A DNA stretch of 64,000 bases from an uncultured Acidimicrobiales bacterium (GCA_938023735.1 CALJDK010000109.1:11125-75124); one strand, 5' to 3'. Positions 3,709 to 47,705 are shown, counted from the stretch's first letter. Notes: a model not told the origin generated them from the sequence alone. Translations and numbers: made by a program.

Positions 3709-3754
3709 CTAACTATCAATCCGAATAAGGTGTCTGGAACCGTCTTTCGTTTAG

Positions 3755-4360
3755 GTGAGCATGGAACCATTGGTACGTCGGGTGCAGTTGAGCACCAATC
3801 GCGTTTATTCAGCGGGCGGAAAAGCGCTCGATCGACCGCATCGGGCCGGGTCGATTGCCGCGATTGTCGATAACCCTTTCGTCGGAAAGTTTCCCGATGC
3901 CGATGCCATCGGTGAGTGGATCACTGCGCTCCAGCCCTTGGCCAACGAATGGTCGATAGAACTCCGCGATGCGCTCACAGCGCCGACCACCGATGGCGAC
4001 TACGAGATCCAGGGCTACGGCAAAGGCGCCATCGTTGGCGTTGACGGTGAACTTGAAATCGCCGCGGCATGGCATGTACCCGCTGGTGCCAGCCTTCGAA
4101 ACGCGCTCGACCATCCGAAAGCGATCGTGCCGTGCTCGAAGAAGGTTGGCGCCCTCGGAAGTCAGGTCGACATCCCGCTCCAATACATCCACGCCAGCTA
4201 TCTGCGCAGTCATTACGACGTGCAGCCAGTGGTGGTTCCCGACGGCCCTCGTCCGAACGAAGTTGTGTACGCCGTCGTGATGTCCACCGGGCCGCGACCA
4301 CATCATCGCATCGGCGGATTCACCATCGATGAGGTGTCGGGCGACGACGGGCAGCGGTAA
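3755..4360 (+). CDS. Amino-acid-synthesis family protein (PF06684/DUF1185-like)
   Basis: GKALDRP...AAIVDNPF...GYGKGAIVGVDGELEIAAAWH blocks are characteristic of this family. Start is the GTG at 3755 or the ATG at 3761. Confidence 0.6.
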   Translation: MSMEPLVRRVQLSTNRVYSAGGKALDRPHRAGSIAAIVDNPFVGKFPDADAIGEWITALQPLANEWSIELRDALTAPTTDGDYEIQGYGKGAIVGVDGELEIAAAWHVPAGASLRNALDHPKAIVPCSKKVGALGSQVDIPLQYIHASYLRSHYDVQPVVVPDGPRPNEVVYAVVMSTGPRPHHRIGGFTIDEVSGDDGQR

Positions 4361-37716: not shown

Positions 37717-38919
37717 TTATGCGTCGAGTGCCTGATCGAGGTCGGCGTAGAGATCCTCGATCGACTCAAGTCCAATCGAAAGCCGCACCATTCCTGGACC
37801 GATGCCCACAGCGTCGCGCGCCTCTGGTGAGAGCCGACGGTGCGTGGTGGTGGCGGGGTGGGTGACAAGACTCTTTGAATCGCCAACGTTGTTGGAGATA
37901 TCGAACAACCGAAGGGCGTCGAGAAACGTGAACGCAGCATCCTTCGAACCGACGTCGACGGTGAGAATCGTGCCACCGGCCGACATCTGCTTGAGCGCCA
38001 ACTCGCATTGAGGGTGCGACTCGAGTGTTGGGTAGCGCACTGCGTGTATCCGAGGGTCGGTGTCGAGGCGGGTCGCCAGCCCGGCCGCAGCGTTGCTCGA
38101 TGCCTCAACCCGAAGACGGATGGTTTCGAGTCCCTTGGCCAAAACCCACGCATTGAACGGGCTCAAGCTTGGACCGGTGTGGCGAAGGAACGGAACAAGC
38201 GTGTCGTCGATGTATTCGTGGGTGCTTAGCACCGCTCCGCCGAGCGTGCGGCCCTGTCCGTCGATGTGTTTGGTGGCCGAATACACCACCACATCGGCGC
38301 CAAACTCAAGCGGCTTCTGAAGCACCGGACTCGCGAATACGTTGTCGACGATCACGATGGCGCCCGCGCTGTGGGCCATCTCGCACACGGCGGCGAGGTC
38401 GATTACTTCCAGACCCGGGTTCGATGGCGATTCAAGAAACACCGCTTTGGCGCCGCCATCCAGCGCTGCTTCCCACGCGTCGAGCGATGTGCCATCGACG
38501 AGTTCGGTTTCCACGCCCATGCGCGGAAGAACCTCGGCGAGGATCACATGGCAGCTGCCAAACAGAGCCCGTGATCCAACGACCCGGTCGCCGGCGCTCA
38601 CCAGCGAGACCAGTGACGCAAAGACTGCCGACATGCCGCTGGCAGTGGCCCGACACGCCTCGGCGCCCTCCAACAATCGAAGCCGTTCTTCAAAGGTCGT
38701 AACCGTTGGGTTTCCGTAGCGCGAATAAATGTAGCGATCGCGTTCGCCGGCAAACGCCGCTTCGGCTTCGGCCGCCGACGAATACACGTAGCCCGAGGTT
38801 GCGTAGATCGCTTCGGCTGTTTCGTCGAACTGCGATCGGTCGAGGCCGCCTCGAACCAGGTTGGTCGCCTCGCCCAGCGGCGGGTTCAACTCTGGGTCCA
38901 CGGGAGGTGGTCCTTCCAA
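37717..38919 (-). CDS. metZ: O-succinylhomoserine sulfhydrylase-like PLP enzyme (Cys/Met metabolism family)
   Basis: SATKHIDGQGRTLGG PLP-lysine block and the C-terminal VRLSIGLESIEDLYADL. The start is uncertain: TTG at 38919 or GTG at 38901, both overlapping the rhodanese stop. Confidence 0.7.
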   Translation of the reverse strand: MEGPPPVDPELNPPLGEATNLVRGGLDRSQFDETAEAIYATSGYVYSSAAEAEAAFAGERDRYIYSRYGNPTVTTFEERLRLLEGAEACRATASGMSAVFASLVSLVSAGDRVVGSRALFGSCHVILAEVLPRMGVETELVDGTSLDAWEAALDGGAKAVFLESPSNPGLEVIDLAAVCEMAHSAGAIVIVDNVFASPVLQKPLEFGADVVVYSATKHIDGQGRTLGGAVLSTHEYIDDTLVPFLRHTGPSLSPFNAWVLAKGLETIRLRVEASSNAAAGLATRLDTDPRIHAVRYPTLESHPQCELALKQMSAGGTILTVDVGSKDAAFTFLDALRLFDISNNVGDSKSLVTHPATTTHRRLSPEARDAVGIGPGMVRLSIGLESIEDLYADLDQALDA

Positions 38920-39287
38920 CCGTCGTGGCGATGGCGTTCGGGGTCAAGGTCGCCTTCGAAACCGGCTGACACGTTGAAGAGGTTGGTAAATCCAGCGCCT
39001 TCGAAAGCGGTTGCCGCCGCCTGCGACCTTGCGCCAGAACGACAAACGAAGAGAACGGGTTGGTCGGAGGCAAGCCCTTCGGTGGCGTTGGTGAGGAAGT
39101 CGGGGTTGGGGCTGCCACCCGGGAACTGCGTCCACTCGACGTGGCGAACCTCTTTGCCAATCGACTCAAGGTTTGGAACACCAACGAAGCTCCACTCGGC
39201 CACGGTCCGAACATCGATGAGCACGGCGTCGGGGTTTTCAACCAGAAGTCCCCACGCGTCGCTGAGAGAAAGTTGTGAAATTGCCAT
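38886..39287 (-). CDS. Single-domain rhodanese-like sulfurtransferase
   Basis: LIDVRTVAEW and the active-site loop FVCRSGARS. 133 aa. Confidence 0.8.
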   Translation of the reverse strand: MAISQLSLSDAWGLLVENPDAVLIDVRTVAEWSFVGVPNLESIGKEVRHVEWTQFPGGSPNPDFLTNATEGLASDQPVLFVCRSGARSQAAATAFEGAGFTNLFNVSAGFEGDLDPERHRHDGWKDHLPWTQS

Positions 39288-39456
39288 TTCGAAGCACCTA
39301 AGCCCTTTATGCCGTAGTGATAACCATCACCCTAAAGATGACTAAACCGGTCAGCTTTAGCGTATCGCTCGTGCGCACAGCACTCGCATCGGGAACGTCG
39401 CACAAGCTCTATTGTCTGGGCAGACCTCGAACAGGACCGCAACAAAGAGGACCACC

Positions 39457-39630
39457 ATGAGCATTCCGGATACTCGCTACGCAATTCTGACCGGCCCCGA
39501 CACGCACGATTTCTGCAAGCGGGTTTCCGACGCCCTCGACGCCGGCTACGAACTCTACGGCTCTCCCGCAATCACCTTCGACTCCGACGGCACCACCCCA
39601 ATAGTCGCCCAAGCCATAATCCGCCCCTAA
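39457..39630 (+). CDS. DUF1737 family small protein
   Basis: The RYAILTGPDTHDFCKRVSDALDAGYELYGSPAITFD pattern is typical of DUF1737. The ATG at 39457 is preferred. Confidence 0.5.
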   Translation: MSIPDTRYAILTGPDTHDFCKRVSDALDAGYELYGSPAITFDSDGTTPIVAQAIIRP

Positions 39631-39633
39631 CCA

Positions 39634-39805
39634 TTCCGCCCAAATGAACAAACATACCTGGCACCAAACCCCCCAAAAGGTGCCAGGTACCAAACAGCGG
39701 TCCAGGTGCCAGGTACCTTTCGGCCCCCAGGTGCCAGGAACCTTTTGCCGATGAGGTTCCAGGCACCGCGCTGTTCCGCCCAAATGAACAAACATACCTG
39801 GCACC
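39634..39805. repeat. Structured intergenic repeat array: two exact 32-bp direct repeats bracketing four further copies of a 13-bp motif
   Basis: TTCCGCCCAAATGAACAAACATACCTGGCACC occurs at 39634-39665 and again at 39774-39805. GGTGCCAGGTACC is at 39679 and 39705, GGTGCCAGGAACC at 39730, and GGTTCCAGGCACC at 39755. Motif spacing is 25-26 bp. Confidence 0.85.
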
Positions 39806-39872
39806 GGATTGTTGATTGGTTGGAGGTGTAGCTGACGGGGCTCGGAATCGAGGGTGGCGGTAGGTTGGGGCG

Positions 39873-40979
39873 ATGTCTGAAACCGATCCTGCTACTTGGT
39901 TGATTTCGGCGGGGCGCAAGCGCGAACCCGGCGAACCGCTCAACGTTGCGCCCGAGTTCGCGTCGAACTTCTACCTCCCAAGCCACCGCCTCTACAGCCG
40001 GGTTGAGGGCACCACCACCTCCAATGCGCTCGAAGACCTTCTCGGTGGACTCGAGGGAGGCCGAGCCTTGTCGTTTGCGTCAGGAATGGCTGCGGTAAGC
40101 GTTGTTCTCCACCGCCTGCCCGCCGGTTCTCATGTGGCCGTTCCCGATGATCCATACCACGGCGTAGCCGGACTCATCGACGAAGGTGAAGCGCAGGGCC
40201 GGTGGACGGTGAGCCGGCTCGACCAGTCTGATACCAGCGTGTGGCTCGAGGCTCTCCAAACCTGCGACCTGGTGTGGCTCGAATCACCCGCAAACCCACT
40301 GATTACCGTCGCTGACCTACCCACGATCTGCGGCGCGCCTCGCAAAGAGGGTTGCCTGGTAGCGGTCGACAGCACATTCGCGACGCCGCTCAACCAGAAG
40401 CCGCTCGACTACGGCGCCGATGTCGTCATGCACTCGGCCACCAAGTTCATCGGCGGACACTCCGACCTTCTGGCCGGCGTCGTCATTACCCGCGACGATG
40501 ATTTGTACGACGAGTTCTACCACCGGCGCCTGCTTTACGGAGCTTCGATTGGCGGCATGGAGGCCTTTCTCACGCTCCGCGGTGCGCGCACGCTGAGTCT
40601 CCGTGTCGAGCGAGCTCAGGAAAACGCGATGATCCTAGCCGAACGCCTCGAACAACACGCCGAAGTCAGCACCGTTCGCTACCCCGGGCTTCCAAGCCAC
40701 CAAACCCATGAGGTCGCGAAGAGTTTTATGACCGGTTTCGGCGCAATGATGTCGTTCGACACCACCGGCGACGGTGCTCGAGCCTCGGCGGCCTGCGAAG
40801 CAGCGAACCTCGTTCACCATGCCACCAGCCTCGGCGGCATCGAATCAACAATGGAACGCCGCGCAGTCATCGAGGGCCAAGAAGGGATGCCGCCAACACT
40901 TATTCGATTCAGTGTCGGCTGCGAAAACGTCGAAGACATTTGGGCTGACCTCGATCAAGCCCTCACTTCCACCAAATAG
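39873..40979 (+). CDS. metB: Cystathionine gamma-synthase/lyase family PLP enzyme
   Basis: HSATKFIGGHSDLLAGVV PLP-lysine block and the C-terminal IRFSVGCENVEDIWADL. 368 aa. Confidence 0.7.
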   Translation: MSETDPATWLISAGRKREPGEPLNVAPEFASNFYLPSHRLYSRVEGTTTSNALEDLLGGLEGGRALSFASGMAAVSVVLHRLPAGSHVAVPDDPYHGVAGLIDEGEAQGRWTVSRLDQSDTSVWLEALQTCDLVWLESPANPLITVADLPTICGAPRKEGCLVAVDSTFATPLNQKPLDYGADVVMHSATKFIGGHSDLLAGVVITRDDDLYDEFYHRRLLYGASIGGMEAFLTLRGARTLSLRVERAQENAMILAERLEQHAEVSTVRYPGLPSHQTHEVAKSFMTGFGAMMSFDTTGDGARASAACEAANLVHHATSLGGIESTMERRAVIEGQEGMPPTLIRFSVGCENVEDIWADLDQALTSTK

Positions 40980-47582: not shown

Positions 47583-47676
47583 CGAACCAATCTAGAGAAG
47601 GCTGCTGTCCAAAAACGCATCGAACAAGTGCGACGTCGCGCCACCGCACAACGTCATATCGACGACTATCAATACG

Positions 47677-47699
47677 AATACGGTTCCAGACACCGTATT
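47677..47699 (-). terminator. Hairpin directly after the engB stop
   Basis: AATACGGT-TCCAGAC-ACCGTATT forms a perfect 8-bp stem. On the minus strand it lies 6 nt after the TGA and is followed by a T-containing tract. It belongs to the GGT(G/T)YCWGRMACC motif family. Confidence 0.45.
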
Positions 47700-47705
47700 T
47701 CAGAT

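What the first reader, a model, noticed from the sequence alone, without database searches (positions are those of the whole stretch)
39634..39805. Dense intergenic array of a 13-bp motif GGTGCCAGG(T/A)ACC bracketed by exact 32-bp direct repeats
The array lies between the DUF1737 gene and the metB-like gene. A 32-bp sequence, TTCCGCCCAAATGAACAAACATACCTGGCACC, occurs twice exactly, 140 bp apart. Each copy ends in the reverse form of the motif. Between them are GGTGCCAGGTACC twice, GGTGCCAGGAACC, and the near-complement GGTTCCAGGCACC. Motif starts are spaced 25-26 bp apart. Adjacent opposite-orientation copies can form 11-13-bp GC-rich stems: 39655-39665 with 39679-39689, and 39730-39742 with 39755-39767. 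The remaining forward copy can pair with the distal direct repeat, giving a nested multi-stem RNA. The array does not fit any riboswitch, CRISPR or IS terminus that I recognise. It could be a REP/MITE-like element, a structured sRNA or leader, or a multi-site operator in front of a methionine-pathway gene.
Basis: seen in the sequence. Interest (0 to 1): 0.6.

Follow-up and report, generated by a model that had tools for sequence, protein, structure and literature searches.

The report
REP-like repeat array with partner transposase
The dense 13-bp motif array is one of about 55-60 copies of a hairpin-forming "selfish" repeat family that travels with this Acidimicrobiales genome's single REP-type (RAYT-like) transposase gene, so it is a known kind of element and not a methionine-specific switch or operator.

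Summary

The array is not specific to this locus. The 13-mer occurs 98 times exactly in the 4.68-Mb genome, in about 55-60 intergenic arrays that share one oriented design: head box, head hairpin, direct units, then a GGTTCCAGGCACC tail. The same arrays flank the genome's only Y1 HUH transposase gene. That protein carries the class-2 Y---NP signature and folds most like E. coli TnpA-REP. Its homologues in relatives are flanked by their own, different 13-mers, each abundant only in its own genome.

At the orthologous DUF1737-metB gap, three congeners are empty, one has a single hairpin, and one has an unrelated palindrome. A conserved leader, riboswitch or met operator is therefore ruled out.

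The "bracketing" 32-mer is the family's head box. Its second copy is the only solo head in the genome, so it is a local peculiarity and not a target-site duplication.

The scan had already reached the REP/RAYT reading on another piece of this genome; I re-tested it independently. New here:
- the same core and period recur beside homologous transposases in Bacillaceae;
- head boxes abut TAA stop codons.

No transcript data could be obtained.

The parts
39412..39630 (+). DUF1737 gene (ATG at 39457 gives 57 aa). Its TAA stop at 39628-39630 lies 3 bp before the repeat element.
   Evidence: Pfam DUF1737, 67 bits; ORF list.
39634..39654 (+). Head box, the 5' module of the repeat family. Consensus: W3-4 CGCC CAWWTG RAC N6-7.
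   Evidence: 30 head boxes genome-wide, 29 of them followed by the hairpin. Found with arrays only, apart from 4 copies beside another palindrome.
39655..39689 (+). Head hairpin: arm TACCTGGCACC (39655-39665), 13-nt A/C-rich loop (39666-39678), arm GGTGCCAGGTA (39679-39689). The 3' arm is also unit 1 (13-mer at 39679-39691).
   Evidence: Perfect 11-bp inverted repeat I8; present in the MFE; 57 such hairpins in the genome; outer stem pairs co-vary.
39705..39717 (+). Unit 2, GGTGCCAGGTACC, in direct orientation 26 bp after unit 1.
39730..39742 (+). Unit 3, GGTGCCAGGAACC. It pairs with the tail unit.
   Evidence: (I7).
39755..39767 (+). Tail unit GGTTCCAGGCACC, the usual last unit of arrays genome-wide.
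39768..39773 (+). 6-bp linker GCGCTG between the tail and the second head.
39774..39805 (+). Solo second copy of the head box plus 5' arm, with no hairpin partner after it. It is the only solo head in the genome. In the MFE it pairs back to unit 2.
   Evidence: (D2, I4).
39873..40979 (+). metB-like Cys/Met-metabolism PLP enzyme gene, same strand. In congener G001 its start overlaps the DUF1737 stop.
   Evidence: Pfam PF01053, 319 bits; orthologous gaps.

Best explanation
Window 39634-39805 is one copy of a dispersed family of REP/BIME-like clustered palindromic repeats. The family is cognate to the genome's single class-2 Y1 HUH transposase (RAYT / TnpA-REP-like; contig C131:23273-23905).

Shown: the family has about 55-60 intergenic arrays with a common polar design. 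A ~20-nt head box is followed by an 11-13-bp hairpin with a 13-nt loop, then 1-4 further 13-mers in direct orientation at a 25-26 bp period, then a GGTTCCAGGCACC tail. The same arrays flank the transposase gene. Homologous transposases in relatives each carry their own variant 13-mer, abundant only in that genome. This insert is absent from the orthologous site in several congeners.

Inferred: the transposase recognises the hairpin in single-stranded DNA, as E. coli TnpA-REP does. Cutting and rejoining there seeds new copies, and arrays then grow or shrink by unit-level duplication or slippage. At this locus the element landed between two genes that are adjacent or overlapping, and so probably co-transcribed, in congeners. 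It is therefore probably transcribed as a -82 kcal/mol intercistronic structure. Such a structure could stabilise the upstream cistron or attenuate read-through, as REPs do in E. coli operons.

The second 32-mer is a local duplication of the head module. It is not a target-site duplication.
For: Genome-wide family:
- 98 exact and 183 one-mismatch 13-mers, in 62 clusters; 180 of the intervals are 25 or 26 bp.
- A shared oriented architecture.
- 54 of 54 arrays are intergenic, and 23 of 46 lie between convergent genes, against 21% of all gaps (p = 1.5e-5).

Transposase:
- One PF01797 hit in the genome, an intact 211-aa ORF.
- HUH motif HFHLL and Tyr motif YIHRNP. Y---NP is the class-2 signature in Quentin 2018 (PMC6006769).
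- NCBIfam REP_Tyr_transpos matches end to end at 49.9 bits, against 16.9 bits for IS200.
- The AF2 model (pLDDT 84) best matches 4er8, TnpA-REP bound to a REP hairpin (E = 2.8e-7, TM 0.73). IS200/IS608/ISDra2 score 0.55-0.64.

Linkage of repeat and gene:
- Arrays lie on both flanks of the gene.
- In the Bertels-type flank test, 16-mers occur 27 and 34 times. Only 3 of 3,758 genes match this on both flanks.

Co-variation:
- Homologues in G019, G001, G022, G018, G023, G010 and G002 are flanked by different 13-mers.
- GGAGCCTGGCACT occurs 171 times in G001 only. GGTACCWGGTACC occurs 29 times in G022 and 0-2 times in the other four genomes checked.
- Bacillaceae and other Actinomycetota with GGTGCCWGGYAC arrays carry homologues with the motif 25-250 bp away.

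Hairpin, locus and recency:
- Compensatory changes preserve the outer stem pairs.
- The orthologous gap is empty in G001, G004 and G005, has a single hairpin in G003, and has an unrelated palindrome in G002.
- The closest paralogue differs at 1 of 59 nt. The next closest is the array beside the transposase gene.
Against: - No biochemical or transcript evidence.
- The protein scores below NCBIfam's curated cut-off for REP_Tyr_transpos (49.9 vs 80 bits). Sequence matches to PDB Y1 enzymes are marginal.
- The repeats lack the GTAG or CGTC tag of the classical REP superfamilies. Units are direct, not alternating as in BIMEs.
- G003 has 40 copies of the hairpin, but its two detectable homologues are flanked by other repeats, so no cognate enzyme was found there.
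- A second, more abundant repeat family in this genome has no Y1 gene at all. Repeat abundance without a linked transposase is therefore possible here.
- The genome is a 211-contig, 90.8%-complete MAG. My gene calls are crude (codon-position GC).
- Copies within one genome are not independent events.
Confidence: 0.85

Rival explanations
1. The array's primary role is host-selected and post-transcriptional. It would be a 3'-end or intercistronic RNA structure (a U-tract-less terminator, an exonuclease barrier, or a translation-coupled regulator placed just after stop codons). Under this reading the transposase link would be historical only.
For: - The sense strand folds far better than shuffles (z = -7.7, against -3.9 for the antisense strand).
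- 21 of 25 head-box arrays have the upstream gene reading into the head. The median gap from stop to head box is 6 bp, against 73 bp on the tail side.
- TAA stops are over-represented: 11 of 17, against 24% genome-wide.
- Arrays are enriched between convergent genes.
- REPs in E. coli are known to stabilise upstream mRNA (established knowledge; cited in PMC3733652).
Against: - The array is absent from the same site in three congeners, where the two genes abut, so it is dispensable for this operon.
- No terminator-like site was found.
- Flanking of the transposase gene and cross-genome co-variation of motif with enzyme are not explained by an RNA role alone.
- The two readings are not exclusive.
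Confidence: 0.2
2. The array is a multi-site double-stranded DNA operator for a dimeric regulator that controls the metB-like gene or the methionine pathway.
For: The 13-mer is a near-palindrome (GGTRCC-W-GGYACC) repeated at a regular spacing 68 bp upstream of a Cys/Met PLP enzyme gene.
Against: - About 55-60 arrays lie next to unrelated genes, mostly at 3' ends, and only 5 of 46 sit between divergent genes.
- The array is not conserved upstream of the orthologous gene in five congeners.
- No promoter-like site lies in the gap.
- The outer stem positions change in a compensatory way, which fits a hairpin and not a fixed protein-recognition sequence.
Confidence: 0.03
3. The element is a MITE derived from a classical insertion sequence, and the 32-bp direct repeat is its target-site duplication.
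For: An exact 32-bp direct repeat brackets the array.
Against: The 32-mer is the family's own head box. There are 30 head boxes in the genome; 29 start an array and none of the other arrays ends in one. The nearest other copy (C184) shares 55 nt with the first 32-mer plus hairpin. So the sequence belongs to the element, not to the target. No classical terminal inverted repeats were seen.
Confidence: 0.03
4. The second 32-mer (the solo head) is a short-read assembly artefact in a repeat-rich MAG and is not real sequence.
For: The genome is a 211-contig MAG. Several arrays sit at contig ends (for example C18:155, C134:155, C104:811), which shows that the repeats disturb assembly. The solo head is unique in the genome.
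Against: The duplication is internal to a long contig, with unique sequence on both sides, and is only 140 bp apart, which is within read or insert length.
Confidence: 0.05

Closest known systems
REP/BIME elements with their REP-associated tyrosine transposase (RAYT / TnpA-REP; 'REPtrons') of Enterobacteria, Pseudomonas, Xanthomonas and Stenotrophomonas (Nunvar 2010 PMC2817692; Ton-Hoang 2012 PMC3333891; structure 4er8, PMC3479197)
   Same: Both are short extragenic hairpin-forming palindromes in high copy, clustered at regular spacing and concentrated at gene 3' ends. Both have a single-copy Y1 HUH gene flanked by the same repeats. Repeat and enzyme co-vary between genomes. The predicted fold is closest to TnpA-REP.
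   Different: There is no GTAG or CGTC tag. After one inversion at the head, the units are in direct orientation, not alternating. The core is only 13 bp and is itself a near-palindrome. A polar head box is present. The host is Acidimicrobiales (Actinomycetota), which is not mentioned in the main text of the four RAYT papers I searched. The protein scores below NCBIfam's curated REP_Tyr_transpos cut-off.
TIRYT / TIRtron (Di Nocera 2013, PMC3733652) = TnpA-Y1 subclass 2.1 (Quentin 2018, PMC6006769) = RAYT Group 1 (Bertels 2017, PMC5581495)
   Same: This is the widely distributed, cross-phylum class-2 group. Its proteins are longer, with a C-terminal extension and a Ser motif after the catalytic Tyr; WSS is invariant here. 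Some homologues carry a DnaA-C-like or HTH tail; one relative has a weak Bac_DnaA_C hit. Flanking self-complementary repeats occur singly, in dimers or in clusters. GGGGTCAGACCCC beside the homologues in G018, G023 and G010 fits the published GGGGWSAS consensus.
   Different: This genome's motif (GGTGCCAG...) departs from GGGGWSAS at two positions. Group 1 RAYTs are reported with low flanking 16-mer abundance (about 12), whereas here it is 27-34, with about 55-60 arrays. Subclass assignment was not tested against reference sequences.
REPINs of Pseudomonas fluorescens (Bertels & Rainey 2011, PMC3116915)
   Same: Both are non-autonomous hairpin repeats thought to be copied by a single-copy RAYT. 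Near-identical sister copies indicate recent copying.
   Different: A REPIN is a doublet of inverted REPs with a spacer. Here the unit is an array of 2-6 phased 13-mers with a head and a tail.
IS200/IS605 insertion sequences (IS608, ISDra2)
   Same: Same HUH/Y1 catalytic core. Subterminal hairpins are recognised in single-stranded DNA, and insertion occurs next to a short target without a duplication.
   Different: The gene here is single-copy and is not itself repeated. It has the Y---NP class-2 signature, and the fold match to IS200-type TnpA is weaker (TM 0.55-0.64, against 0.73 for TnpA-REP).

Membership tests
REP-RAYT system (REPtron) | Short palindromic repeat able to form a hairpin | tested here: met
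   Perfect 11-bp stem with a 13-nt loop. MFE -82.1 kcal/mol, z = -7.7. Outer stem pairs are kept by compensatory changes.
REP-RAYT system (REPtron) | High copy number, dispersed, extragenic | tested here: met
   98 exact and 183 one-mismatch 13-mers in about 55-60 arrays. 54 of 54 arrays lie outside called genes.
REP-RAYT system (REPtron) | Y1 transposase gene flanked on both sides by the same repeats, with flanking 16-mers abundant genome-wide (Bertels 2017 criterion) | tested here: met
   Arrays lie 5' and 3' of C131:23273-23905. Flank 16-mers occur 27 and 34 times, placing the gene in the top 3 of 3,758 genes.
REP-RAYT system (REPtron) | Transposase gene present as a single copy, not as a multi-copy IS | tested here: met
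   One PF01797 match in the assembly. The assembly is 90.8% complete, so a second copy cannot be strictly excluded.
REP-RAYT system (REPtron) | HUH motif, catalytic Tyr and the class-2 Y---NP signature | tested here: met
   HFHLL and YIHRNP, invariant across 11 homologues. Signature as defined in PMC6006769.
REP-RAYT system (REPtron) | RAYT-specific NP(L/V)(R/K)xG motif and conserved N-terminal Thr (Nunvar 2010) | tested here: inconclusive
   The protein has NPLDLG: NP, L and G are present, but D replaces R/K. At the likely Thr position, HVMNRG has Met, and Thr appears in only one homologue. No reference alignment was available.
REP-RAYT system (REPtron) | Passes NCBIfam NF047646 (REP_Tyr_transpos) curated cut-off | tested here: not met
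   49.9 bits against a cut-off of 80, although the match is end to end and far above IS200 (16.9 bits).
REP-RAYT system (REPtron) | Fold closest to TnpA-REP rather than IS200-type TnpA | tested here: met
   Foldseek top hit is 4er8_A: E = 2.8e-7, TM(target) 0.73, 159 of 165 residues aligned. IS200/IS608/ISDra2 give 0.55-0.64.
REP-RAYT system (REPtron) | Repeat sequence co-varies with the transposase between genomes | tested here: met
   There are different flanking 13-mers per homologue, each abundant only in its own genome. The pairing recurs in Bacillaceae. Exception: no cognate was found in G003.
REP-RAYT system (REPtron) | Enzyme binds and cleaves its REP in single-stranded DNA; repeats are mobilised | not testable with these tools
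   This needs biochemistry or population sequencing. The only indirect signs are near-identical sister copies and presence/absence at orthologous sites.
GTAG/CGTC-tagged REP superfamilies (Di Nocera 2013) | GTAG or CGTC tetranucleotide at one end of the palindrome | tested here: not met
   The stem feet read (T/A)(G/A)TACC...GGTAC(C/A). No GTAG or CGTC was seen in the aligned copies.
BIME | Regularly spaced REPs in alternating orientation | tested here: not met
   The regular spacing is met (25-26 bp). Orientation is one inverted head followed by direct units, typically -++++.
TIRYT / Y1 subclass 2.1 | Flanking repeats carry GGGGWSAS; C-terminal extension with Ser motif, with or without a DnaA-C/HTH domain | tested here: inconclusive
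   Relatives' GGGGTCAG fits the consensus, but this genome's GGTGCCAG differs at 2 of 8 positions. The WSS motif is invariant. One homologue has Bac_DnaA_C at 19.3 bits, below the 31.5 cut-off. The G000 protein has no HTH tail.
Riboswitch or other curated RNA family | Match to an Rfam covariance model | tested here: not met
   Only chance-level hits (E of 2 or more, far below gathering scores) in 38800-40600.
MITE | Terminal inverted repeats plus a target-site duplication at every copy | tested here: not met
   The 32-bp direct repeat exists at this locus only. It is the element's own head module.
CRISPR array | Repeats of 24-48 bp separated by unique spacers of similar length | tested here: not met
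   The repeat is 13 bp. Spacers are 12-13 bp and themselves semi-conserved (AAACCCCC..., TTTCNGCCC...). There are about 55-60 short arrays, not one or a few loci.

The most novel reading that the evidence does not exclude
The GGTGCCWGGYACC near-palindrome, in direct arrays with a 25-26 bp period, may be the conserved cognate site of one RAYT lineage that spans at least two phyla (Acidimicrobiales and other Actinomycetota, and Bacillaceae). In this genome the element also has a polar 'head box' module that docks within about 6 bp of the stop codon, preferentially TAA and often CTAAC, of a gene reading into it. That would imply one of two things. Either a Y1 transposase targets gene 3' ends, for example a stop-codon-like target sequence or single-stranded DNA exposed at transcription ends. 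Or the head-box array has been domesticated as a 3'-end mRNA or translation-termination device. Neither has been described for REP systems as far as I could find.
Probability: 0.2. Interest if true: 0.6.

Novelty: new member of a known kind. Interest (0 to 1): 0.35.

Why it matters
For annotation, it removes a tempting false lead. The array is not a methionine-pathway riboswitch, leader or operator. The same reading will explain roughly 55-60 similar "mystery arrays" in this genome and in related Acidimicrobiales MAGs, and it probably explains many contig breaks.

For biology, it extends REP-RAYT systems to an uncultured actinobacterial order. It also gives a compact, testable substrate (an 11-13-bp stem, a 13-nt loop and a head box) for a divergent class-2 Y1 enzyme.

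Three observations give handles on the open question of how REP arrays are targeted and grow:
- the same 13-mer core and period recur beside homologous genes in Bacillaceae;
- the head box abuts TAA stops;
- one congener has a spacer-less 13-bp tandem version.

Tried and rejected
- Rfam at permissive E-values over 38800-40600 gave only chance hits.
- The promoter and terminator consensus scan found nothing in 39200-40000. This is weak evidence, because actinobacterial signals fit the consensus poorly.
- A phmmer search of the transposase against PDB found nothing. The profile search gave only marginal, non-discriminating hits to ISDra2/IS200 and 4er8. Structure prediction plus Foldseek was needed to separate them.
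- Full-text searches for the 13-mer and its palindromic variants returned only unrelated eukaryotic primers and sequences. One badly chosen literature query returned noise.
As a result there was no RNA-seq, no read-level check of the solo head, and no read laying.
- I considered that the head box might be an independent host post-stop motif that arrays land beside. This was rejected: outside arrays it occurs at the chance level, 21 matches against 18 in the control.
- I considered that the two other genes with abundant 16-mers on both flanks might be novel repeat-associated enzymes. They look like ordinary genes lying among a second repeat family.
- Raw MFE does not separate the two strands (-82 vs -86 kcal/mol). 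Only the z-scores differ, so I make no firm claim about which strand is functional.

Full report
**1. The observation**

- The 32-mer TTCCGCCCAAATGAACAAACATACCTGGCACC occurs exactly twice, at 39634-39665 and 39774-39805.
- The 13-mer GGTGCCAGGTACC is exact at 39679 and 39705. Variants lie at 39730 (GGTGCCAGGAACC) and 39755 (GGTTCCAGGCACC). The reverse form ends each 32-mer.
- Starts are 26, 26, 25 and 25 bp apart, and TRF reports a period of 25.
- Ten matches with up to two mismatches lie in the window, against 1.3 expected; none of 100 shuffles reached ten.
- The three proposed stems exist. The sense-strand RNA MFE (-82.1 kcal/mol, z = -7.7) reproduces the nested fold. The antisense strand gives -85.8 kcal/mol, z = -3.9.
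- The neighbours are a DUF1737 gene and a Cys/Met-metabolism PLP enzyme gene.

**2. It is a genome-wide family with a fixed architecture**

The window is contig C109 of a 4.68-Mb, 61.5% GC, 211-contig assembly. The 13-mer occurs 98 times exactly and 183 times with up to one mismatch. Nearly all copies lie in 62 clusters, and 180 of the intervals are 25 or 26 bp.

Aligned copies show one oriented design:
- a head box, roughly W3-4 CGCC CAWWTG RAC N6-7;
- a hairpin, TACCTGGCACC / 13-nt A,C-rich loop / GGTGCCAGGTA;
- one to four further 13-mers in direct orientation;
- a tail, usually AAAGGTTCCAGGCACC.

The window copy fits this design exactly.

**3. The 'bracketing' repeat**

Of 31 matches to the head-box pattern in the genome, one is spurious. 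Of the 30 true head boxes, 29 are followed by the hairpin partner. The only solo head is the second 32-mer here. So the direct repeat is not a target-site duplication or any general feature of the family. It is a local duplication of the head module, by an unresolved mechanism, or less likely an assembly artefact that I could not check.

The first 32-mer plus hairpin shares a 55-nt exact stretch with the array on contig C184 (1 mismatch in 59). The next closest copy is the array immediately downstream of the transposase gene (6 of 59), which shares the rare AACAAAC(A/G)TACC head variant.

**4. The partner gene**

The genome has a single PF01797 (Y1_Tnp) match, at C131:23273-23905, an intact 211-aa ORF. 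Arrays of the same 13-mer lie on both sides of it.

I applied the flanking 16-mer criterion of Bertels et al. 2017 (PMC5581495). Its flanks carry 16-mers present 27 and 34 times. Only 3 of 3,758 crude gene calls have both flanks that abundant. The other two are ordinary genes sitting among a second repeat family.

Features of the protein:
- It has HFHLL (HUH) and YIHRNP. Y---NP is the class-2 (TnpA-REP) signature of Quentin et al. 2018 (PMC6006769).
- NCBIfam's REP_Tyr_transpos model matches end to end at 49.9 bits. That is below its curated 80 bits but far above IS200 at 16.9 bits.
- Sequence searches of PDB are marginal.
- An AlphaFold model (pLDDT 84, pTM 0.83) matches E. coli TnpA-REP bound to a REP hairpin best (4er8; E = 2.8e-7, TM 0.73 over 159 of 165 residues). 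IS200/IS608/ISDra2 TnpA score 0.55-0.64.

**5. Co-variation across genomes**

Homologues occur in 17 of 24 genomes of the same taxonomic family and in none of 16 from other families of the order. Each examined homologue is flanked by its own 13-bp near-palindrome:

| Genome | Flanking motif |
|---|---|
| G019 | GGTGCCWGGCACC |
| G001 | GGAGCCTGGCACT |
| G022 | GGTACCWGGTACC |
| G018, G023, G010 | GGGGTCWGACCCC |
| G002 | GGGGTCAGGCAC |

- The G001 motif occurs 171 times in G001 and not at all in four other genomes. The G022 motif occurs 29 times in G022 and 0-2 times elsewhere.
- The exact head hairpin of this genome occurs 57 times here, 40 times in congener G003, 24 times in G019, and 0-1 times in 38 other relatives.
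- Across all collected hairpins the three stem positions outside my fixed search core change in a compensatory way (A-T to G-C, T-A to C-G, G-C to C-G). Pairing is 0.83, 0.73 and 0.75, against a maximum of 0.65 in 500 shuffles. Copies within a genome are related, so this counts copies and not events.
- One exception: G003's two detectable homologues are flanked by other repeats, so its cognate enzyme is missing from the assembly or lost.

**6. An unexpected extension**

Among the single hits from other phyla, *Rossellomorea marisflavi* has the same core (GGTGCCAGGYAC) as a head hairpin followed by many direct units at a 25-bp period. *Metabacillus arenae*, a Bacillaceae MAG, a Gaiellaceae MAG and an 'Actinomycetes' MAG have GGTGCCWGGCACC doublets or arrays. 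All five genomes carry homologues of the transposase (27-41% identity). The motif lies on both flanks in *M. arenae* and within 25-250 bp of a homologue in the others. The pairing of motif and enzyme therefore crosses phyla.

**7. This locus is an insertion, not a conserved regulatory region**

In five congeners the DUF1737 and metB-like genes are syntenic. The gaps differ:
- G001: the gap is essentially nil, with an ATGA stop/start overlap.
- G005 and G004: the gaps are short and carry no motif.
- G003: a single hairpin without a head box.
- G002: an unrelated long palindrome.

In this genome the gap is 242 bp. The two genes are thus probably one transcription unit into which repeats have inserted more than once. 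No Rfam family and no promoter- or terminator-like site is found. This rules out a conserved methionine riboswitch, leader or operator.

**8. Genomic context of the family**

- All 54 arrays lie outside called genes. Of the 46 with a called gene on both sides, 23 lie between convergent genes, against 21% of all gaps (p = 1.5e-5), and only 5 lie between divergent genes.
- Head-box arrays are polar. In 21 of 25 the upstream gene reads into the head (p = 9e-4). The median gap from stop codon to head box is 6 bp, against 73 bp on the tail side (p = 2e-6). The window copy has a 3-bp gap.
- The stops abutting head boxes are TAA in 11 of 17 cases, against 24% genome-wide (p = 5e-4), often as CTAAC.
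- The head box occurs outside arrays only at the chance level. Four copies sit beside a different palindrome, GCTCCCGCGGGAGC, so it is a module of the element.
- Whether this polarity reflects target choice or selection is unexplained.

**9. How it most likely works**

Shown: a repeat family plus one linked, intact class-2 Y1 gene; co-variation between them; variable presence at orthologous sites; and near-identical sister copies.

Inferred from established knowledge of TnpA-REP and IS200/IS605 enzymes (PMC3333891, PMC3479197):
- the enzyme recognises the hairpin in single-stranded DNA, cuts beside it and rejoins, seeding copies;
- arrays then change length by unit duplication or slippage;
- here the array is probably co-transcribed with DUF1737 and metB and folds strongly, so it may stabilise the upstream cistron or reduce read-through, as E. 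coli REPs do.

**10. Comparison with known systems, and novelty**

The system works like a REPtron and meets most of its defining features. It departs in several ways:
- it has no GTAG or CGTC tag (Di Nocera 2013, PMC3733652);
- units are direct, not alternating (Nunvar 2010, PMC2817692);
- it has a head box;
- the protein scores below NCBIfam's cut-off.

The enzyme most resembles the widely distributed subclass 2.1 / Group 1 / 'TIRYT' set: it has a C-terminal extension and the WSS motif, and relatives' repeats fit GGGGWSAS. I could not test subclass membership against reference sequences.

None of the four RAYT papers I searched mentions Actinobacteria or Firmicutes in its main text. The motif is not in the searchable literature.

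An earlier follow-up in this scan reached the same REP/RAYT reading for another array of this genome. I re-derived it independently.

Verdict: a new member of a known kind, of modest interest. Two leads are worth following: cross-phylum conservation of the core and period, and head boxes abutting TAA stops.

Noticed in passing
Genome contigs outside the window, e.g. G000:C68:11560-12320 and C137:3300-4300: A second, more abundant palindromic repeat family (for example CGCGACACTCGTGTCTGACACCTGTGTCGCG; its top 16-mers occur 60-84 times) has no Y1 transposase gene detectable in this 90.8%-complete assembly. In congener G003 a related-looking repeat (GTGTCAGAGCAAGTGCCA) flanks a Y1 homologue.
   Followed up: partly
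G000 arrays on C1:3811-3932, C24:3994-4152, C87:9737-10017, C90:24167-24350, C104:811-969, C137:131-330: A ~95-bp element with its own internal inverted repeats (GG|AAACTCAGCGGATAGGCGCTTGCGCACATTTTGACATCCGCTGAGTTTCAAGAAGCCGGCACATTGGGCGAAGCCCAATCCGCGCGGCTT|CC) appears inserted within 13-mer units. It gives the recurrent 95-96 bp spacing in six arrays.
   Followed up: no
Relative G001, e.g. G001:C10:25-141, C29:38551-38680, C96:3096-3134 and 3837-3888: In congener G001 the cognate 13-mer (GGAGCCTGGCACT) forms pure 13-bp tandem arrays with no spacer, 171 copies in all, including on both sides of its Y1 gene. This array geometry differs from the 25-26 bp period here.
   Followed up: partly
G000:C56:7842, C56:15469, C83:130, C119:12: The head-box motif (GCTCAT[AC]TGAAC) also occurs about 5 nt before a different palindrome, GCTCCCGCGGGAGC. 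The head box may therefore be a module shared between repeat types.
   Followed up: no
window 3712-3750 and 47665-47703: Two solitary 13-mer relatives share a 5' flank (ACTATCAAT[C/A]CGAATA). The core is flipped between them (GGTGTCTGGAACC vs GGTTCCAGACACC).
   Followed up: partly
Whole genome (crude gene calls): Stop-codon usage came out as TAG 42%, TGA 33%, TAA 24%, an unusually high TAG share for a 61% GC genome. It rests on my simple codon-position-GC gene caller and needs a proper gene finder.
   Followed up: no
Relative G002, orthologous gap (L016:1374-1533): The same DUF1737-metB gap in G002 carries an unrelated long palindrome (AAATTTTGCCCCAAAGTGAC...GTCACTTTGCAACAAAATTT). This intergenic site has been hit independently by different hairpin repeats.
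   Followed up: no
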